64,000 bases of DNA from Escherichia coli (lineage in GTDB: Bacteria > Pseudomonadota > Gammaproteobacteria > Enterobacterales > Enterobacteriaceae): NCBI RefSeq assembly GCF_017348835.2, contig NZ_CP072315.1; one strand, written 5' to 3'. Within the stretch, counting starts at the first letter, position 1, and every line of letters starts with the position of its first letter. Below, piece after piece: positions 37,708 to 47,620 of this stretch. Under the pieces are notes generated by a model. That model was not told the DNA's origin, searched no databases, and saw only the letters and a program-made list of their open reading frames with translations. The translations under genes were made by a program, and so were the position numbers.

Positions 37708-38085
37708 TTGCCAGTCGGGGATATTAAAAAGAGTATAGGTTTTTATTGCGATAAACTAGGTTTCACTTTGGTTCACCATGAAGATGGATTCGCAGTTCTA
37801 ATGTGTAATGAGGTTCGGATTCATCTATGGGAGGCAAGTGATGAAGGCTGGCGCTCTCGTAGTAATGATTCACCGGTTTGTACAGGTGCGGAGTCGTTTA
37901 TTGCTGGTACTGCTAGTTGCCGCATTGAAGTAGAGGGAATTGATGAATTATATCAACATATTAAGCCTTTGGGCATTTTGCACCCCAATACATCATTAAA
38001 AGATCAGTGGTGGGATGAACGAGACTTTGCAGTAATTGATCCCGACAACAATTTGATTAGCTTTTTTCAACAAATAAAAAGCTAA
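37708..38085 (+). CDS. bleO: Bleomycin-binding protein, Gram-positive (pUB110-type) BleO-like
   Basis: 125 aa from TTG at 37708; sequence PVGDIKKSIGFYCDKLGFTLVHHEDGFAVLMCNEVRIHLWEASDEGW… matches the pUB110 bleomycin-resistance protein as I recall it; an in-frame stop upstream suggests the native N-terminus is missing. Confidence 0.7.
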   Translation: MPVGDIKKSIGFYCDKLGFTLVHHEDGFAVLMCNEVRIHLWEASDEGWRSRSNDSPVCTGAESFIAGTASCRIEVEGIDELYQHIKPLGILHPNTSLKDQWWDERDFAVIDPDNNLISFFQQIKS

Positions 38086-38404
38086 AATCTATTATTAATC
38101 TGTTCAGCAATCGGGCGCGATTGCTGAATAAAAGATACGAGAGACCTCTCTTGTATCTTTTTTATTTTGAGTGGTTTTGTCCGTTACACTAGAAAACCGA
38201 AAGACAATAAAAATTTTATTCTTGCTGAGTCTGGCTTTCGGTAAGCTAGACAAAACGGACAAAATAAAAATCTAAATATGCTTGAACAACTTGTAACTTA
38301 AATTCATAACTGTATTTTGCCATAAAAAATGACCTCCCATAAGTTAGATTTTTGGTCTAACTTATGGGGGTCAGTTCATTCTACACTTGGGCTGCATGTT
38401 TTGA

Positions 38405-38797
38405 TTAATTATCTAATATCTCCGGATCTCCTGTAAAGGAATATAAAACTGCCTGCATGTTTTTCAAATAAAATACGGTGAATTTCCCATCATCAGCGCT
38501 ATACCAATCTCTCAAATGCGGATTTGCTTCAAGCATTGCTTCCCTTGCTTCCACGGTATCATCAATTACGGCTTCGCCGGTGAGCCGAATCCATTTTCCT
38601 TTTGCCATACCTGAGACTTCCACCTTTGAATTTGCCAATAACTGCTGATAAACTTTTTTCTGATTGGTTGTACCAAGATAGACCTTGCCATTCCTCTCCA
38701 TGGCTGCATTAAACGGTCTGACCCTTGGCTGGTCTCCTTCAACGGTTGCAAAATAAAAAGTTTTTGCTTCATTTAAAAAATCAACAACTTGACTCAT
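38405..38797 (-). CDS. Pyridoxamine 5'-phosphate oxidase-like (flavin-binding split-barrel) protein
   Basis: 130-aa ORF in an AT-rich, Gram-positive-like segment; fold assignment tentative. Confidence 0.5.
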   Translation of the reverse strand: MSQVVDFLNEAKTFYFATVEGDQPRVRPFNAAMERNGKVYLGTTNQKKVYQQLLANSKVEVSGMAKGKWIRLTGEAVIDDTVEAREAMLEANPHLRDWYSADDGKFTVFYLKNMQAVLYSFTGDPEILDN

Positions 38798-39079
38798 CCT
38801 TTTTTACCTCCATAAATAAATTTTTCTTTACTTTTCTTTGACCTAAATTCCACGTGCATTTTTTATTAGCTTAAAAGAACACTATTTCACGAAGAATTTA
38901 AACTGATACTCCCACATTGTAACATTATTTACCACCACCTTTCAATCTTTTTCAATAAATTATTGATTGCAACTTTTGAGTAAAGATACTTATTAAACCC
39001 TGCAAGTTATCCACAGAGCAACACTCGATTTTCAAGATGATATCTTTATTACACCAGACATTTTTCATACACTTCCTTG

Positions 39080-39899
39080 GGCACTGTTGCAAAGTTAGCG
39101 ATGAGGCAGCCTTTTGTCTTATTCAAAGGCCTTACATTTCAAAAACTCTGCTTACCAGGCGCATTTCGCCCAGGGGATCACCATAATAAAATGCTGAGGC
39201 CTGGCCTTTGCGTAGTGCACGCATCACCTCAATACCTTTGATGGTGGCGTAAGCCGTCTTCATGGATTTAAATCCCAGCGTGGCGTTGATTATCCGTTTC
39301 AGTTTGCCATGATCGCATTCAATCACGTTGTTCCGGTACTTAATCTGTCGGTGTTCAACGTCAGACGGGCACCGGCCTTCGCGTTTGAGCAGAGCAAGCG
39401 CGCGACCATAGGCGGGCGCTTTATCCGTGTTGATGAATCGTGGGATCTGCCACTTCTTCACGTTGTTGAGGATTTTACCCAGAAACCGGTATGCAGCTTT
39501 GCTGTTACGACGGGAGGAGAGATAAAAATCGACAGTGCGGCCCCGGCTGTCGACGGCCCGGTACAGATACGCCCAGCGGCCATTGACCTTCACGTAGGTT
39601 TCATCCATGTGCCACGGGCAAAGATCGGAAGGGTTACGCCAGTACCAGCGCAGCCGTTTTTCCATTTCAGGCGCATAACGCTGAACCCAGCGGTAAATCG
39701 TGGAGTGATCGACATTCACTCCGCGTTCAGCCAGCATCTCCTGCAGCTCACGGTAACTGATGCCGTATTTGCAGTACCAGCGTACGGCCCACAGAATGAT
39801 GTCACGCTGAAAATGCCGGCCTTTGAATGGGTTCATGTGCAGCTCCATCAGCAAAAGGGGATGATAAGTTTATCACCACCGACTATTTGCAACAGTGCC
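39080..39899 (-). mobile_element. IS26 copy 2 (820 bp)
   Basis: Both 14-bp ends present; abuts a 5'-truncated IS26 in the opposite orientation at 39900. Confidence 0.9.
39132..39836 (-). CDS. tnp26: IS26 transposase Tnp26 (Asn at position 184)
   Basis: 234 aa from [12 protein letters not shown]; contains KRIINATLG. Confidence 0.9.
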   Translation of the reverse strand: MNPFKGRHFQRDIILWAVRWYCKYGISYRELQEMLAERGVNVDHSTIYRWVQRYAPEMEKRLRWYWRNPSDLCPWHMDETYVKVNGRWAYLYRAVDSRGRTVDFYLSSRRNSKAAYRFLGKILNNVKKWQIPRFINTDKAPAYGRALALLKREGRCPSDVEHRQIKYRNNVIECDHGKLKRIINATLGFKSMKTAYATIKGIEVMRALRKGQASAFYYGDPLGEMRLVSRVFEM

Positions 39900-40207
39900 C
39901 AAACGCGAAGGCCGGTGCCCGTCTGACGTTGAACACCGACAGATTAAGTACCGGAACAACGTGATTGAATGCGATCATGGCAAACTGAAACGGATAATCG
40001 GCGCCACGCTGGGATTTAAATCCATGAAGACGGCTTACGCCACCATCAAAGGTATTGAGGTGATGCGTGCACTACGCAAAGGCCAGGCCTCAGCATTTTA
40101 TTATGGTGATCCCCTGGGCGAAATGCGCCTGGTAAGCAGAGTTTTTGAAATGTAAGGCCTTTGAATAAGACAAAAGGCTGCCTCATCGCTAACTTTGCAA
40201 CAGTGCC
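39900..40207 (+). mobile_element. Partial IS26 (3' terminal 308 bp)
   Basis: Encodes the C-terminal about 80 aa of Tnp26 with Gly at position 184 (KRIIGATLG); ends with TTTGCAACAGTGCC. Confidence 0.85.
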
Positions 40208-41044: not shown

Positions 41045-41884
41045 CTAGGCATGATCTAACCCTCGGTCTCTGGCGTCGCGACTGCGAAATTTCGCGAGGG
41101 TTTCCGAGAAGGTGATTGCGCTTCGCAGATCTCCAGGCGCGTGGGTGCGGACGTAGTCAGCGCCATTGCCGATCGCGTGAAGTTCCGCCGCAAGGCTCGC
41201 TGGACCCAGATCCTTTACAGGAAGGCCAACGGTGGCGCCCAAGAAGGATTTCCGCGACACCGAGACCAATAGCGGAAGCCCCAACGCCGACTTCAGCTTT
41301 TGAAGGTTCGACAGCACGTGCAGCGATGTTTCCGGTGCGGGGCTCAAGAAAAATCCCATCCCCGGATCGAGGATGAGCCGGTCGGCAGCGACCCCGCTCC
41401 GTCGCAAGGCGGAAACCCGCGCCTCGAAGAACCGCACAATCTCGTCGAGCGCGTCTTCGGGTCGAAGGTGACCGGTGCGGGTGGCGATGCCATCCCGCTG
41501 CGCTGAGTGCATAACCACCAGCCTGCAGTCCGCCTCAGCAATATCGGGATAGAGCGCAGGGTCAGGAAATCCTTGGATATCGTTCAGGTAGCCCACGCCG
41601 CGCTTGAGCGCATAGCGCTGGGTTTCCGGTTGGAAGCTGTCGATTGAAACACGGTGCATCTGATCGGACAGGGCGTCTAAGAGCGGCGCAATACGTCTGA
41701 TCTCATCGGCCGGCGATACAGGCCTCGCGTCCGGATGGCTGGCGGCCGGTCCGACATCCACGACGTCTGATCCGACTCGCAGCATTTCGATCGCCGCGGT
41801 GACAGCGCCGGCGGGGTCTAGCCGCCGGCTCTCATCGAAGAAGGAGTCCTCGGTGAGATTCAGAATGCCGAACACCGTCACCAT
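41045..41884 (-). CDS. sul1: Sulfonamide-resistant dihydropteroate synthase Sul1
   Basis: 279 aa from [23 protein letters not shown]. Confidence 0.95.
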
Positions 41885-42225
41885 GGCGTCGGCCTCCGCA
41901 GCGACTTCCACGATGGGGATCGGGCGAGCAAAAAGGCAGCAATTATGAGCCCCATACCTACAAAGCCCCACGCATCAAGCTTTTGCCCATGAAGCAACCA
42001 GGCAATGGCTGTAATTATGACGACGCCGAGTCCCGACCAGACTGCATAAGCAACACCGACAGGGATGGATTTCAGAACCAGAGAAAGAAAATAAAATGCG
42101 ATGCCATAACCGATTATGACAACGGCGGAAGGGGCAAGCTTAGTAAAGCCCTCGCTAGATTTTAATGCGGATGTTGCGATTACTTCGCCAACTATTGCGA
42201 TAACAAGAAAAAGCCAGCCTTTCAT
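41878..42225 (-). CDS. qacEdelta1: Truncated SMR efflux protein QacEdelta1
   Basis: 115 aa [27 protein letters not shown]…. Confidence 0.95.
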
Positions 42226-42335
42226 GATATATCTCCCAATTTGTGTAGGGCTTATTATGCACGCTTAAAAATAATAAAAGCAGACTTGACCTGATAGTTT
42301 GGCTGTGAGCAATTATGTGCTTAGTGCATCTAACG
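42223..42335 (-). repeat. About 110-bp direct repeat, copy A (start of 3'-conserved segment upstream of qacEdelta1)
   Basis: CCCAATTTGTGTAGGGCTTATTATGCACGCTTAAAAATAATAAAAGCAGACTTGACCTGATAGTTTGGCTGTGAGCAATTATGTGCTTAGTGCATCTAACG. Confidence 0.9.
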
Positions 42336-42341
42336 CCTGAA

Positions 42342-43187
42342 TTAAGCTGCGCCGCGAAGCGGCGTCGGCTTGAATGAACTGTTAGACATCATTGGCGTGG
42401 AGCCGAGCAGACTGGCGGCTTCGTGCTTCACAAAGTAAATGAACGCAGTCAACTGATCAGCGCGTGAGGCCAAGCAATCCATCCCTTGTCCAAGGTAAGC
42501 CTGCTGGGCTTCAAGCAGCACGGGCTGATGTTGGACGGGCAGGCGTTCCATTACCCAGTTGGCAGCTACATCCTTCGGCGCGATCTTGCCGGTTGCTGCG
42601 CTGTACCAAATGCGAGACAAAGTAAGCACTACATTCCGCTCGTCGCCTGCCCAATCCGGTTGTGAGTTCCATAGTTTCAAGGTGTCGGCCAGTGCTTTGA
42701 ATAGATCGCTTTCCGGGACTGAGTTGAAGAAATCTTCCGCGGCCGAACCTGCCAAGGCAAGGCTGTGTTGCCTTGCTTTAGTTAGCAGAATAGCCAGATC
42801 AACATCGGTTGTCGCGGGCTCGAAGATGCCCGCAAGAATGTCCTTGCGCTGCCACTCCCCGAATTGCAGTTCCCGTCTGGCTGGATAACGCCAAGGAACA
42901 ACATCGCCGTACACGACGATGGTAACTTCCAAGGCACGGAGAGCTTCACTTTGGCCGGGAGAAGCGGAAACTTCCAGGAAATCTACGAACAGAGCCTGCC
43001 GCACAGTCTCATCGAGCTGTGCAGTCACAGTAACCAGCAAATCAATATCACTGCATGGCTTCAGGCCACCGTCGAGTGCAGAGCCGTACAAATGCACGGC
43101 CAGCAACGTCGATCCCAGATGATGCTCGATGACGTTGAGTGCCTGTGATAGCTGTACCGAAATCTCGGCGGGCACTGCGTTGCTCAT
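42342..43187 (-). CDS. aadA16: Aminoglycoside (3'')(9) adenylyltransferase, aadA16-type
   Basis: 281 aa from MSNAVPAEISVQ; C-terminus …MSNSSFKPTPLRGAA reads into the attC region; allele assignment is from the array context and my recollection of the gene length. Confidence 0.8.
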   Translation of the reverse strand: MSNAVPAEISVQLSQALNVIEHHLGSTLLAVHLYGSALDGGLKPCSDIDLLVTVTAQLDETVRQALFVDFLEVSASPGQSEALRALEVTIVVYGDVVPWRYPARRELQFGEWQRKDILAGIFEPATTDVDLAILLTKARQHSLALAGSAAEDFFNSVPESDLFKALADTLKLWNSQPDWAGDERNVVLTLSRIWYSAATGKIAPKDVAANWVMERLPVQHQPVLLEAQQAYLGQGMDCLASRADQLTAFIYFVKHEAASLLGSTPMMSNSSFKPTPLRGAA

Positions 43188-43299
43188 GATGTCTAACTCC
43201 CAATTTGTGTAGGGCTTATTATGCACGCTTAAAAATAATAAAAGCAGACTTGACCTGATAGTTTGGCTGTGAGCAATTATGTGCTTAGTGCATCTAACG
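43186..43299 (-). repeat. About 110-bp direct repeat, copy B (5' region of the aadA16 cassette)
   Basis: Near-identical to copy A; supplies the MSNA start of aadA16. Confidence 0.9.
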
Positions 43300-43367
43300 C
43301 CGCTAAGCAGCGGCACATTTTGCGTTTTGAGCGCAGCGAAGCAAAATGTGTCCGATGGCTTGGATGG

Positions 43368-43841
43368 TTAACCCCTTTGCCAGATTTGATAGCGATAATT
43401 TATATTTGAATGAAATTCCTGCTCGAACACCACATTGAACTCTTTGGGGATTTCCGGAAAGAAAACATTGCCCTCTGGCTCGGAATCTATTGTCGAGATA
43501 TGTAGCGTGTCGGCATGGGCGATCAGACTCTTGTAGATCTCTCCACCACCAGAAACAACAACATGGTTCGTAAGAGTCTTTAGCTCCCTCATTGCTGCTT
43601 CTATAGATGGAAACACAACCACATCATCGTTAGTAGCTACCGATCCTGAGCGGCTGACAACTGCATACTTTCTATTTGGGAGAGCCCCCATTGCCTCAAA
43701 TGTTTTACGGCCGACTAAGAGCCATTGATTGTAAGTTATTGCTTTAAAAAGCAGCTGCTCACCTTTAGCGTTCCACGGGATATCCGAGCCGCAGCCAATA
43801 ACCCCATTTCTTGCTTTTGCAGCCATTAGTGATATTTTCAC
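43368..43841 (-). CDS. dfrA27: Trimethoprim-resistant dihydrofolate reductase, dfrA27-type
   Basis: 157 aa from a GTG start (V)[22 protein letters not shown]…; 474 bp. Confidence 0.8.
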
Positions 43842-43973
43842 GATACTCCTTTGGGTTAACGCCGCCATAAACGGCGACAGGGTGGCGCGCCTATTGCGCA
43901 TAAAATGGCGAAGCCATGCGCAACAGGCGCGGAATCTCTGGCGTCCGGTTTGATGGCTTTGTTATGCAAAGGA

Positions 43974-44426
43974 CTAGTCTTCAATGACGTGTAAACCACG
44001 GCGCTTTAAGTCCTCCAACGAATCCAACATTCCCCTTATTAATTCAACAGGATGCCCCTCCCAGTCTTCAACAACGCCAACAATTCTCAAGGGTTCGCAG
44101 GTTCTATAGGACTGTGTTGGATTACCGGGAAATCTTTTGTTCGTAAGATTCGGATCGTCTTCGAACGGTCCTGTTGGCTCAACTATGTATATGTAGCCGC
44201 GACCCTCGAGGCCAGACAGTGACATAGCAAGTTCAGCTCCCCAAACTGCTGGCTCCATCAAGGCTGAAAAGTAGATGTGCTTAAGAATACGACCGTCCTC
44301 GAAATGAGAGATGAACCCTGTGGTTAGCAAGTCACCAATCGCCAAATTGGCTTTGGTTCCATGATAGAACGGTCCTTGCACCTGCTTGTAATTATCATGA
44401 GAGATGGGAATCCAATCTTTTACCAT
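43974..44426 (-). CDS. arr-3: Rifampin ADP-ribosyltransferase Arr-3
   Basis: 150 aa MVKDWIPISHDNYKQVQGPFYHGTKANL…. Confidence 0.9.
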   Translation of the reverse strand: MVKDWIPISHDNYKQVQGPFYHGTKANLAIGDLLTTGFISHFEDGRILKHIYFSALMEPAVWGAELAMSLSGLEGRGYIYIVEPTGPFEDDPNLTNKRFPGNPTQSYRTCEPLRIVGVVEDWEGHPVELIRGMLDSLEDLKRRGLHVIED

Positions 44427-44522
44427 TTTAAGACCCTTAATTGTTGGGATTTGGCTGCATAACGTTTGACATGAGGGGCGGCCAAGGGCGCCAGCCCTTG
44501 GACGTCCCCCTCGATGGAAGGG

Positions 44523-45122
44523 TTAGGCATCACTGCGTGTTCGCTCGAATGCCTGGCGTGTTTGAACCATGTACACGGCTGGACCATATGGGGTGGTTAC
44601 GGTACCTTGCCTCTCAAACCCCGCTTTCTCGTAGCATCGGATCGCTCGCAAGTTGCTCGGCGACGGGTCCGTTTGGATCTTGGTGACCTCGGGATCATTG
44701 AACAGCAACTCAACCAGAGCTCGAACCAGCTTGGTTCCCAAGCCTTTGCCCAGTTGTGATGCATTCGCCAGTAACTGGTCTATTCCGCGTACTCCTGGAT
44801 CGGTTTCTTCTTCCCACCGTCCGTCCCCGCTTCCAAGAGCAACGTACGACTGGGCATACCCAATCGGCTCTCCATTCAGCATTGCAATGTATGGAGTGAC
44901 GGACTCTTGCGCTAAAACGCTTGGCAAGTACTGTTCCTGTACGTCAGCAAGTGTCGGGCGTGCTTCTTCTCCGCCCCACCACTCGACGATATGAGATCGA
45001 TTTAGCCACTCATAGAGCATCGCAAGGTCATGCTCAGTCATGAGGCGCAGTGTGACGGAATCGTTGCTGTTGGTCACGATGCTGTACTTTGTGATGCCTA
45101 ACTTTGTTTTTGCGTTGCTCAT
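44523..45122 (-). CDS. aac(6')-Ib-cr: Aminoglycoside/fluoroquinolone acetyltransferase AAC(6')-Ib-cr
   Basis: 199 aa from MSNAKTKLG; carries both -cr signature substitutions (Trp102Arg in GDGRWEEE and Asp179Tyr in TTPYGPAVY, numbering per the usual convention). Confidence 0.9.
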
Positions 45123-45233
45123 GATGTCTAACTCCCAATTTGTGTAGGGCTTATTATGCACGCTTAAAAATAATAAAAGCAGACTTGACCTGATAGTTTG
45201 GCTGTGAGCAATTATGTGCTTAGTGCATCTAAC
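45119..45233 (-). repeat. About 110-bp direct repeat, copy C (5' region of the aac(6')-Ib-cr cassette, next to attI1)
   Basis: Near-identical to copies A and B. Confidence 0.9.
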
Positions 45234-45295
45234 TTTGTTTTAGGGCGACTGCCCTGCTGCGTAACATCGTTGCTGCTCCATAACATCAAACATCG
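45230..45295 (-). other. attI1 recombination site
   Basis: 5'-conserved-segment end sequence …GATGTTATGGAGCAGCAACGATGTTACGCAGCAGGGCAGTCGCCCTAAAACAAAGTT read on the minus strand. Confidence 0.8.
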
Positions 45296-45368
45296 ACCCA
45301 CGGCGTAACGCGCTTGCTGCTTGGATGCCCGAGGCATAGACTGTACAAAAAAACAGTCATAACAAGCC

Positions 45369-46382
45369 ATGAAAACCGCCACTGCGCCGTTACCACCGCT
45401 GCGTTCGGTCAAGGTTCTGGACCAGTTGCGTGAGCGCATACGCTACTTGCATTACAGCTTACGAACCGAACAGGCTTATGTCCACTGGGTTCGTGCCTTC
45501 ATCCGTTTCCACGGTGTGCGTCACCCGGCAACCTTGGGCAGCAGCGAAGTCGAGGCATTTCTGTCCTGGCTGGCGAACGAGCGCAAGGTTTCGGTCTCCA
45601 CGCATCGTCAGGCATTGGCGGCCTTGCTGTTCTTCTACGGCAAGGTGCTGTGCACGGATCTGCCCTGGCTTCAGGAGATCGGAAGACCTCGGCCGTCGCG
45701 GCGCTTGCCGGTGGTGCTGACCCCGGATGAAGTGGTTCGCATCCTCGGTTTTCTGGAAGGCGAGCATCGTTTGTTCGCCCAGCTTCTGTATGGAACGGGC
45801 ATGCGGATCAGTGAGGGTTTGCAACTGCGGGTCAAGGATCTGGATTTCGATCACGGCACGATCATCGTGCGGGAGGGCAAGGGCTCCAAGGATCGGGCCT
45901 TGATGTTACCCGAGAGCTTGGCACCCAGCCTGCGCGAGCAGCTGTCGCGTGCACGGGCATGGTGGCTGAAGGACCAGGCCGAGGGCCGCAGCGGCGTTGC
46001 GCTTCCCGACGCCCTTGAGCGGAAGTATCCGCGCGCCGGGCATTCCTGGCCGTGGTTCTGGGTTTTTGCGCAGCACACGCATTCGACCGATCCACGGAGC
46101 GGTGTCGTGCGTCGCCATCACATGTATGACCAGACCTTTCAGCGCGCCTTCAAACGTGCCGTAGAACAAGCAGGCATCACGAAGCCCGCCACACCGCACA
46201 CCCTCCGCCACTCGTTTGCGACGGCCTTGCTCCGCAGCGGTTACGACATTCGAACCGTGCAGGATCTGCTCGGCCATTCCGACGTCTCTACGACGATGAT
46301 TTACACGCATGTGCTGAAAGTTGGCGGTGCCGGAGTGCGCTCACCGCTTGATGCGCTGCCGCCCCTCACTAGTGAGAGGTAG
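45369..46382 (+). CDS. intI1: Class 1 integron integrase IntI1
   Basis: 337 aa [40 protein letters not shown]…. Confidence 0.95.
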
Positions 46383-46584: not shown

Positions 46585-46800
46585 AACAGCCAGAAAGGCT
46601 GTTACAGGCGATTTGATCTGCAACCTATTGGTTAAATTAATGTATCAAAAACGATGGTTTTTGTGACAGTCTTGAAAAGTCCTGACTTCTCCCGAAAAAT
46701 GACTCCCCTCATGTAACAAAACTCGTTACTGTATCAACATAACAATAACCCCATAACTAATTAGCGAGAAAAGAATGAAAATCGGCTATGCACGTAAATC

Positions 46801-47620
46801 GGCACTGTTGCAAATAGTCGGTGGTGATAAACTTATCATCCCCTTTTGCTGATGGAGCTGCACATGAACCCATTCAAAGGCCGGCATTTTCAGCGTGACA
46901 TCATTCTGTGGGCCGTACGCTGGTACTGCAAATACGGCATCAGTTACCGTGAGCTGCAGGAGATGCTGGCTGAACGCGGAGTGAATGTCGATCACTCCAC
47001 GATTTACCGCTGGGTTCAGCGTTATGCGCCTGAAATGGAAAAACGGCTGCGCTGGTACTGGCGTAACCCTTCCGATCTTTGCCCGTGGCACATGGATGAA
47101 ACCTACGTGAAGGTCAATGGCCGCTGGGCGTATCTGTACCGGGCCGTCGACAGCCGGGGCCGCACTGTCGATTTTTATCTCTCCTCCCGTCGTAACAGCA
47201 AAGCTGCATACCGGTTTCTGGGTAAAATCCTCAACAACGTGAAGAAGTGGCAGATCCCACGATTCATCAACACGGATAAAGCGCCCGCCTATGGTCGCGC
47301 GCTTGCTCTGCTCAAACGCGAAGGCCGGTGCCCGTCTGACGTTGAACACCGACAGATTAAGTACCGGAACAACGTGATTGAATGCGATCATGGCAAACTG
47401 AAACGGATAATCAACGCCACGCTGGGATTTAAATCCATGAAGACGGCTTACGCCACCATCAAAGGTATTGAGGTGATGCGTGCACTACGCAAAGGCCAGG
47501 CCTCAGCATTTTATTATGGTGATCCCCTGGGCGAAATGCGCCTGGTAAGCAGAGTTTTTGAAATGTAAGGCCTTTGAATAAGACAAAAGGCTGCCTCATC
47601 GCTAACTTTGCAACAGTGCC
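46801..47620 (+). mobile_element. IS26 copy 3 (820 bp)
   Basis: Both 14-bp ends; no target duplication. Confidence 0.95.
46864..47568 (+). CDS. tnp26: IS26 transposase Tnp26 (Asn at position 184)
   Basis: 234 aa; KRIINATLG. Confidence 0.9.
   Translation: MNPFKGRHFQRDIILWAVRWYCKYGISYRELQEMLAERGVNVDHSTIYRWVQRYAPEMEKRLRWYWRNPSDLCPWHMDETYVKVNGRWAYLYRAVDSRGRTVDFYLSSRRNSKAAYRFLGKILNNVKKWQIPRFINTDKAPAYGRALALLKREGRCPSDVEHRQIKYRNNVIECDHGKLKRIINATLGFKSMKTAYATIKGIEVMRALRKGQASAFYYGDPLGEMRLVSRVFEM

What the first reader, a model, noticed from the sequence alone, without database searches (positions are those of the whole stretch)
42342..43187. aadA16-type ORF reads through into its attC
The adenylyltransferase ORF does not stop at the usual position but continues to …STPMMSNSSFKPTPLRGAA, encoded by attC-like sequence (AACAATTCGTTCAAGCCGACGCCGCTTCGCGGCGC-like). 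The C-terminus is therefore cassette-boundary derived.
Basis: partly seen in the sequence, partly recalled or inferred. Interest (0 to 1): 0.25.

Follow-up and report, generated by a model that had tools for sequence, protein, structure and literature searches.

The report
aadA16 gene ends inside its attC
This is the ordinary, already catalogued streptomycin/spectinomycin resistance gene aadA16, whose last 15 codons and stop lie inside its integron recombination site because of a one-base insertion shared with aadA6 and aadA11.

Summary
On the minus strand, 43187..42342 is an 846-nt ORF of 281 aa. It is identical in sequence and coordinates to RefSeq AadA16 (WP_001749984.1). It sits in the common class 1 integron array aac(6')-Ib-cr / arr-3 / dfrA27 / aadA16 / qacEdelta1 / sul1.

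AadA family profiles and the AadA1 crystal structure end at residue 261-262. The remaining residues (…STPMMSNSSFKPTPLRGAA) are extra. The 60-nt attC lies at 42387..42328. The ORF overlaps 46 of those 60 nt and stops at a TAA in the L' core.

The cause is not stop-codon readthrough. Compared with aadA7, there is one extra base about 10 nt before the attC, which puts the ancestral TGA out of frame (A-TGA-TG read as ATG ATG). The feature is also not specific to aadA16: reference AadA6, AadA11 and an unnamed allele carry the same insertion and tail.

The tail looks like a passenger. AlphaFold gives it pLDDT below 50. Its substitutions follow compensatory changes in the attC stem. Alleles with different downstream DNA have different tails.

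Verdict: real, correctly interpreted, already known, low interest. One consequence is that loss of the attC in this clade can give in-frame fusion proteins.

The parts
42342..43187 (-). aadA16 coding sequence, 846 nt, 281 aa plus TAA
   Evidence: ORF list and translation. Identical coordinates and 100% identity to RefSeq AadA16 WP_001749984.1. NCBIfam NF012157 scores 480.5 bits against a cutoff of 375.
42402..43187 (-). Conserved AadA enzyme core, residues 1-262
   Evidence: Family profiles match residues 7-261/262. The AadA1 structure 7uy4 aligns to residues 6-262. In the AlphaFold model the last helix spans 239-262.
42396..42398 (-). Codon 264 (ACG), which contains the one-base insertion relative to aadA7 (exact base ambiguous by about 1 nt)
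   Evidence: In the alignment aadA7 reads GGTGCCA-GCCAATGA, aadA16 reads GGCTCCACGCCAATGATG, and aadA6/aadA11 read GTGCCATGCCAGTGATG.
42389..42391 (-). Ancestral TGA stop, now out of frame (A-TGA-TG read as ATG ATG, codons 266-267)
   Evidence: Codon map and alignment with aadA7 and aadA2, whose stops are at this position.
42328..42387 (-). attC of the aadA16 cassette, 60 nt. R'' is at 42387..42381, L'' about 42375..42368, L' about 42347..42341 and R' at 42334..42328. The cassette ends at G 42334.
   Evidence: Core sites located. The bottom strand folds as DNA at -14.4 kcal/mol, z = -3.8. Across 7 aadA attC sites 98.1% of cells are paired with 4 compensatory pairs, against 30-40% in slid controls.
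42342..42387 (-). ORF/attC overlap of 46 nt: third base of codon 267, codons 268-281 (SNSSFKPTPLRGAA), and the TAA stop inside the L' core GCTTAAT
   Evidence: Codon map. AlphaFold gives pLDDT below 50 and no secondary structure for residues 265-281.
43188..43196 (-). Native start of the aadA cassette (TTAGACATC before the ATG)
   Evidence: The same G|TTAGACATCATGAG… start is seen in aadA6, aadA11, the unnamed allele and aadA7.
43197..43298 (-). R' core of the dfrA27 attC plus the 101-bp qacE 5'-UTR segment ('qacE101' pseudo-cassette), which supplies the GGGAG Shine-Dalgarno sequence and, according to the literature, a promoter for aadA16
   Evidence: Three-copy direct repeat. Described for aadA16 and aac(6')-Ib-cr in the review PMC8876359, section 2.3. 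My simple sigma-70 scan found no minus-strand promoter here.

Best explanation
This is the standard aadA16 cassette of a class 1 integron. In the common ancestor of the aadA6/aadA11/aadA16 group, one base was gained about 10 nt upstream of the attC, inside what is now codon 264. That shifted the reading frame past the ancestral TGA, which sits one base before the R'' core in aadA1, aadA2 and aadA7. The shift joined the enzyme's frame to an open frame present in every aadA-type attC examined here (M-S-N-N-S-F-K-P-T-P-L-R-G-A-A-stop). Translation therefore continues through R'', L'' and both arms of the central stem, and ends at the TAA that is part of the L' core. The product is a normal ANT(3'')-Ia adenylyltransferase with an 18-19-residue tail that is probably disordered. 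The tail's sequence is set by what the recombination site needs, not by what the enzyme needs. Shown here: the anatomy, the indel, the shared tail across alleles, the attC structure and the predicted disorder. Inferred: the direction of the indel (insertion rather than deletion) and the tail being neutral for enzyme activity.
For: The sequence is identical to reference AadA16, with the same coding-sequence ends. Profiles and the AadA1 structure stop at residue 261-262. A one-base indel separates these alleles from aadA7, and it is shared by aadA6, aadA11 and an unnamed allele; all are annotated as 846 bp / 281 aa. The same frame is open in the attC sites of aadA1, aadA2 and aadA7, where it is not part of the gene, so the open frame is a property of the attC. 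The attC fold is supported by four compensatory pairs. The aadA11 double compensatory change (GACGCCGC…GCGGCGCGG to GAACCCGC…GCGGGTCGG) changes tail residues T275N and A280S, so the tail follows stem pairing. Clade members with different downstream DNA have unrelated tails or stop early: P0005, P0009, P0010, P0016 and P0022. AlphaFold gives pLDDT 31-34 for the tail against 86 overall. A later paper refers to AadA16 as functionally characterised for streptomycin and spectinomycin, citing Sun et al. 2010 (PMC13038893).
Against: No experiment seen here compares tailed and tail-less enzyme, so neutrality is an inference. Few sequences in the AlphaFold alignment carry the tail, and that alone lowers confidence there. 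The direction of the indel rests on parsimony: most AadA alleles stop before or inside R''. No rooted phylogeny was built. A third class of alleles ending …NDV* with the stop inside R'' shows that indels recur at this junction, so the history may be more complex.
Confidence: 0.8

Rival explanations
1. The extension into the attC is selected for its effect on expression. Ribosomes translating aadA16 unwind the attC hairpin in the mRNA, which relieves the block that attC stem-loops impose on translation of the next cassette. This would be a built-in version of the termination-reinitiation proposed for short ORFs inside attC sites.
For: The attC region forms a stable RNA hairpin of -22.2 kcal/mol, z = -4.4. 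The ORF covers both arms of the central stem. The review PMC8876359, section 3.2, reports that attC hairpins impede ribosomes and that short ORFs inside attC sites may relieve this. In aadA1, aadA2 and aadA7 the attC-internal frame starts at an ATG overlapping the stop (TAATG / TGATG).
Against: Nothing here measures expression. In this window the next gene, qacEdelta1, has its own leader, which the literature reports to contain a promoter, and its own Shine-Dalgarno sequence, so coupling is not needed. A neutral frameshift explains the same data.
Confidence: 0.15
2. The tail is a functional part of the enzyme, for example in stability, oligomerisation or localisation, and is kept by selection on the protein.
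For: The tail is retained in several widely spread alleles: aadA6, aadA11 and aadA16.
Against: The tail is predicted to be disordered. It is absent from AadA1, AadA2, AadA7 and the solved structures. Among the four tailed alleles I count five non-synonymous against two synonymous differences, and they sit where the attC tolerates change. Natural variants have replaced or truncated tails.
Confidence: 0.04
3. The extension is a sequencing, assembly or annotation artefact, and the true gene stops at the usual place.
For: Single-base indels near gene ends are a common type of error.
Against: The junction is found at >=99% identity in 434 plasmid records from many genera. The same extra base occurs in three other divergent alleles. 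There is no in-frame stop before 42344..42342.
Confidence: 0.01

Closest known systems
AadA16, ANT(3'')-Ia family (RefSeq WP_001749984.1; first described by Sun et al. 2010 as cited in PMC13038893)
   Same: Identical DNA, identical coding-sequence boundaries, and the same array dfrA27-aadA16 following aac(6')-Ib-cr and arr-3.
   Different: Nothing.
AadA6 (WP_022675713.1) and AadA11 (WP_048608579.1)
   Same: Both are 846 bp / 281 aa with the same extra base before the attC. Both end in an attC-encoded tail, …MPVMSNNSFKPTPLRGAA or …FKPNPLRGSA, and stop at the TAA in L'.
   Different: Relatives of this type are 84-88% identical to AadA16 in protein (P0006, P0017). They lack the qacE101 leader; their cassettes start directly at G|TTAGACATCATGAGT.
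AadA7 (closest allele with a conventional end; L002, P0029)
   Same: About 81% protein identity and 86.6% DNA identity for L002. The attC is nearly identical and the cassette start is the same.
   Different: It lacks the extra base, so it ends …LLGASQ with a TGA one base before R''. It is 265 aa.
ANT(3'')-Ii/AAC(6')-IId bifunctional fusion protein (P0013, P0015; Centron and Roy, as cited in PMC8876359)
   Same: The aadA moiety belongs to the same tailed clade. The frame runs …GAMPVMS through the first bases of R''.
   Different: In the fusion the attC is lost and the frame continues into aac(6')-Ib. In the window the attC is intact and the frame stops in L'.
Cassettes whose stop codon lies in the R'' core (aac(6')-Ib-cr and dfrA27 in this same array; AadA alleles ending …NDV*)
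   Same: The ORF and the attC overlap, which reflects how compact cassettes are.
   Different: Those overlaps are only a few bases. The ACID database allows at most 15 bp of overlap (PMC2674596). Here the overlap is 46 of 60 bp.

Membership tests
AadA / ANT(3'')-Ia aminoglycoside nucleotidyltransferase | Whole-protein score above the curated cutoff of the family model | tested here: met
   NF012157 scores 480.5 bits against a cutoff of 375, covering profile positions 1-255 of 256.
AadA / ANT(3'')-Ia aminoglycoside nucleotidyltransferase | Allele identity to AadA16 | tested here: met
   100% identity to the AMRFinder aadA16 allele and to WP_001749984.1 over the same coordinates.
AadA / ANT(3'')-Ia aminoglycoside nucleotidyltransferase | Two-domain fold: an N-terminal nucleotidyltransferase domain and a C-terminal helical domain | tested here: met
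   Aligns to AadA1 structure 7uy4 with E = 3.9e-125. AlphaFold gives pTM 0.82 with a mixed alpha/beta N-terminal part and a helical C-terminal part. No fold search was run.
AadA / ANT(3'')-Ia aminoglycoside nucleotidyltransferase | Confers streptomycin and spectinomycin resistance | not testable with these tools
   Second-hand literature only: PMC13038893 calls AadA16 function-characterised and cites Sun et al. 2010. The original paper is not held.
Integron attC recombination site | R'' core matching RYYYAAC and R' core matching GTTRRRY at the two ends, complementary to each other | tested here: met
   GTCTAAC at 42387..42381 and GTTAGAT at 42334..42328. The outer helix is 95.9% paired across 7 sites.
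Integron attC recombination site | Imperfect internal palindrome (L''/L' and central stem) supported by covariation | tested here: met
   The inner helix is 99% paired, with 4 pairs changed on both sides. No shuffle out of 500 reached the observed covariation score, and slid controls gave 30-40% pairing.
Integron attC recombination site | Extrahelical bases on the folded bottom strand and an unpaired central spacer | tested here: met
   In the structure used, columns 16 and 23 are bulged (G and T on the bottom strand) and columns 8-12 / 48-53 are unpaired. The DNA fold of the bottom strand is consistent with this. The aadA16 site has one extra C.A mismatch at columns 21/40.
Integron attC recombination site | Recombined by IntI1 | not testable with these tools
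   Context only: the site lies between a cassette ORF and the 3'-conserved segment of an intI1 integron.
Fused gene cassette (attC lost between two genes) | [quoted passage not shown] | tested here: not met
   The aadA16 attC in the window is complete at 60 nt. The fused state is seen elsewhere, in L010 and P0013.
Translational stop-codon readthrough or recoding | An in-frame stop codon that is decoded or bypassed | tested here: not met
   There is no in-frame stop between 43187 and 42345. The old TGA is out of frame because of a one-base indel.

The most novel reading that the evidence does not exclude
Joining aadA in frame to the attC-internal short frame may have real consequences. Ribosomes finishing aadA16 would melt the attC mRNA hairpin and so raise translation of the next cassette. 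Also, because no stop precedes the attC, any deletion within the attC can produce an in-frame bifunctional enzyme in one step. Examples are ANT(3'')-Ii/AAC(6')-IId and the AadA16-AAC(6')-II fusion ORF on contig L010. On this reading the aadA6/11/16 clade would be a recurrent source of fusion resistance proteins.
Probability: 0.2. Interest if true: 0.35.

Novelty: already known. Interest (0 to 1): 0.1.

Why it matters
For biology it matters little. This is the reference form of a very common resistance cassette, and the tail is most likely a passenger. There are two practical points.

First, annotation. The tail-bearing reference proteins, together with the frame that stays open in aadA-type attC sites, appear to make NCBI's PGAP pipeline label intact aadA1- and aadA7-type genes as "frameshifted" pseudogenes that end at the attC TAA. 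Surveillance pipelines that discard pseudogenes could then under-call resistance.

Second, evolution. A cassette gene with no stop before its attC is one deletion away from an in-frame fusion with the next cassette, and natural examples exist.

Tried and rejected
- **Original papers.** Sun et al. 2010 (PMID 19906273) and Partridge et al. 2002 on aadA10 (PMC127381) are not held. Functional statements about AadA16 are therefore second-hand.
- **Failed search.** A paper search for the fusion enzyme failed because of characters in the term. The fusion is cited through the review instead.
- **IntegronFinder paper.** It says nothing about ORF/attC overlap.
- **Promoter scan.** The simple sigma-70 scan found no minus-strand promoter in the qacE101 leader. 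The promoter claim rests only on the literature.
- **Protein cluster look-up.** The sources give only generic AadA names. Allele names came from tblastn against annotated plasmids instead.
- **Readings rejected.** Stop-codon readthrough is rejected because no in-frame stop exists. A fused cassette is rejected because the attC is intact. A sequencing artefact is rejected because of the 434 concordant records.
- **Analyses not run.** I did not run a structure-similarity search or a rooted aadA phylogeny. Neither would change the verdict.

Full report
**Context**

Window 41045..46382 is a class 1 integron with its cassettes on the minus strand. It comprises:
- intI1 at 45369..46382 (plus strand);
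- aac(6')-Ib-cr, with its stop at 44525..44523;
- arr-3 at 43974..44426;
- dfrA27, ending at 43368;
- aadA16 at 42342..43187;
- qacEdelta1 at 41878..42225;
- sul1 at 41045..41884.

The same array carries the same product names in RefSeq plasmids. IS26 copies flank it. The best-matching plasmids include large IncHI2-type multidrug-resistance plasmids. The array is very common: 287 papers in the library mention both aadA16 and dfrA27.

**Checking the observation**

The attC is the 60-nt stretch 42387..42328. Its R'' core is GTCTAAC and its R' core is GTTAGAT.

The codon map shows that the third base of codon 267, codons 268-281 and the TAA stop (42344..42342) all lie inside the attC. The stop sits in the L' core GCTTAAT, 7 nt before R'. 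The ORF therefore overlaps 46 of the 60 attC bases.

The 1142-nt cassette region is 100% identical to many plasmid records. The 193-nt gene/attC junction occurs at >=99% identity in 434 plasmid records from Klebsiella, Escherichia, Salmonella and other genera. RefSeq annotates AadA16 (WP_001749984.1) with exactly these boundaries, and AMRFinder reports 100% identity.

**Where the enzyme ends**

- The NCBIfam AadA model NF012157 matches residues 7-261 (profile positions 1-255 of 256, 480.5 bits against a cutoff of 375).
- The AadA1 crystal-structure chain 7uy4_A aligns to residues 6-262 and ends there.
- An AlphaFold model (pTM 0.82) places the final helix at residues 239-262. Residues 265-281 have pLDDT below 50 and no secondary structure.

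The last 18-19 residues are therefore an appendage to a complete enzyme.

**How the extension arose**

I aligned the gene/attC junction of aadA16 with aadA7 (L002), aadA1 (L003), aadA2 (L004), aadA6 (L006), aadA11 (L007) and an unnamed Klebsiella allele (L008).
- aadA7 reads …GGT GCC AGC CAA TGA|TGTCTAAC.
- aadA16 reads …GGC TCC ACG CCA ATG ATG TCT AAC.

aadA16 has one extra base, in codon 264. The ancestral TGA is still present at 42391..42389 but is now read out of frame. No stop codon is bypassed, so this is a frameshift fixed in the DNA and not translational readthrough.

aadA6, aadA11 and the unnamed allele have the same extra base. All three are annotated as 846 bp / 281 aa. The feature therefore belongs to a clade and not to aadA16 alone.

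Among the homologues retrieved, three kinds of ending occur:
- a stop just before R'' (aadA1, aadA2, aadA7);
- a stop inside the R'' core, in alleles ending …NDV*;
- a stop in L', in the tailed clade.

**The attC is a genuine, intact site**

I counted pairs over seven aadA attC sites using the canonical layout of an R''/R' helix, an unpaired spacer, and an L''/L' plus central stem with two bulged bases. The result was 98.1% of cells paired, four pairs with changes on both sides, and no shuffle out of 500 reaching the observed covariation score. Slid controls gave 30-40% pairing. The bottom strand folds as DNA at -14.4 kcal/mol with z = -3.8. The aadA16 site has one broken pair (C.A at columns 21/40), caused by a G-to-A change that is synonymous in the Ala280 codon.

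**What determines the tail sequence**

- The frame M-S-N-N-S-F-K-P-T-P-L-R-G-A-A-stop is also open in the attC sites of aadA1, aadA2 and aadA7, where it is not part of the gene. The open frame is therefore a property of the site.
- In aadA11, two compensatory pairs in the central stem changed together. This altered the tail at T275N and A280S.
- Clade members with other downstream DNA have unrelated tails or stop early: …MMSNSSLATKKVP, …MSNNSYMDSPHK…, …MMSN*.

Together with the predicted disorder, this supports a passenger tail shaped by the recombination site. Neutrality for enzyme activity is an inference. The only functional statement available is second-hand: AadA16 is called function-characterised for streptomycin and spectinomycin in PMC13038893, which cites Sun et al. 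2010.

**Comparison with what is known**

Cassette genes often overlap their attC by a few bases. In this same array the stops of aac(6')-Ib-cr (GCC TAA C) and dfrA27 (GGT TAA C) lie in their R'' cores. The ACID database allows at most 15 bp of overlap (PMC2674596). An overlap of 46 bp is therefore extreme for cassettes in general, but it is the reference state for aadA6, aadA11 and aadA16. The aadA16 attC has also been drawn with the start and stop codons marked (PMC5454043, Figure 3A).

**A consequence**

Because no stop precedes the attC, loss of the attC can fuse the enzyme in frame to the next gene.
- The known bifunctional ANT(3'')-Ii/AAC(6')-IId protein has the junction …[17 protein letters not shown] (P0013, P0015; review).
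- A metagenome contig (L010) carries dfrA27-qacE101-aadA16 in which the frame runs through GTCTAACAGTTCATTCAA directly into an aac(6')-II-type gene, giving a 457-aa ORF.

**An untested functional reading**

attC hairpins in the mRNA impede ribosomes, and short ORFs inside attC sites have been proposed to relieve this (PMC8876359, section 3.2). The aadA16 attC forms an RNA hairpin of -22.2 kcal/mol, and the aadA16 ribosome must unwind it. Whether this helps the next cassette is unknown. In this window the next gene has its own leader.

**Verdict**

The finding is real and correctly interpreted, but it is the known reference form of a common resistance gene. The mechanism is a fixed one-base frameshift shared with aadA6 and aadA11. 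Novelty is "already known", and interest is low.

Noticed in passing
L002:1512-2356, L003:1514-2352, L005:1512-2350 (RefSeq E. coli plasmids): Intact aadA7-type and aadA1-type ORFs of 265 or 263 aa with a normal stop are annotated by PGAP as 'frameshifted' pseudogenes. Their annotated ends fall exactly on the TAA in the attC L' core. An exact-reference aadA2 (L004) is annotated normally. The likely cause is protein-evidence alignment to the 281-aa tailed references across the conserved attC frame.
   Followed up: partly
window 45233..45111, 43298..43176, 42334..42212 (minus strand): There are three copies of a 123-nt direct repeat. The 101-bp qacE 5'-UTR segment ('qacE101') precedes aac(6')-Ib-cr, aadA16 and qacEdelta1. 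The first two copies are 100% identical through ATGAGCAACGCA. The literature describes this as a promoter-carrying pseudo-cassette (PMC8876359).
   Followed up: yes
window 45131..45098 (minus strand): The start of aac(6')-Ib-cr is a mosaic. After qacE101 come 21 nt identical to the start of the aadA16 cassette (TTAGACATC ATG AGC AAC GCA), then 13 nt matching the end of attI1 (AAAACAAAGTTAG), then the aacA4 cassette. The N-terminal MSNA of AAC(6')-Ib-cr therefore appears to be borrowed from an aadA16-type gene.
   Followed up: partly
L010:419-1792 (ENA metagenome contig ERZ27240067 k141_85110): A 457-aa ORF fuses AadA16 (…GSTPMMSNSSF) in frame to an AAC(6')-II-type acetyltransferase, with the join inside the L'' region of the aadA16 attC. 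The acetyltransferase gene is followed by an aadA-like attC, and its own stop lies in the GCCTAAC core. The protein cluster has 5 member sequences, all from ENA; assembly chimerism was not excluded.
   Followed up: partly
window 44523..44529 and 43368..43374 (minus strand): The stop codons of aac(6')-Ib-cr (GCC TAA C) and dfrA27 (GGT TAA C) lie inside the R''-type cores of their own attC sites. Short ORF/attC overlap is therefore the norm in this array.
   Followed up: yes
window 42367 and 42348 (attC columns 21 and 40): The aadA16 attC has a C.A mismatch where the six other aadA attC sites have C-G. The G-to-A change is synonymous in tail codon Ala280. Any effect on recombination is unknown.
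   Followed up: no
window 42342..43316 (minus strand): The maximal ORF extends upstream through qacE101 to a GTG at 43316, giving 324 aa. Several database proteins (for example P0002 at 353 aa and P0004 at 340 aa) are over-extended N-terminal calls of this kind.
   Followed up: partly
window 37708..40160 and 46786..47568: IS26 transposase ORFs flank the integron at 39132..39854 and 46846..47568, and a partial duplicate of the IS26 transposase C-terminus lies at 39895..40155. An ORF resembling a bleomycin-binding protein lies at 37708..38085, and a 130-aa ORF at 38405..38797 may be the pyridoxamine 5'-phosphate oxidase family protein named in a related plasmid's annotation.
   Followed up: no
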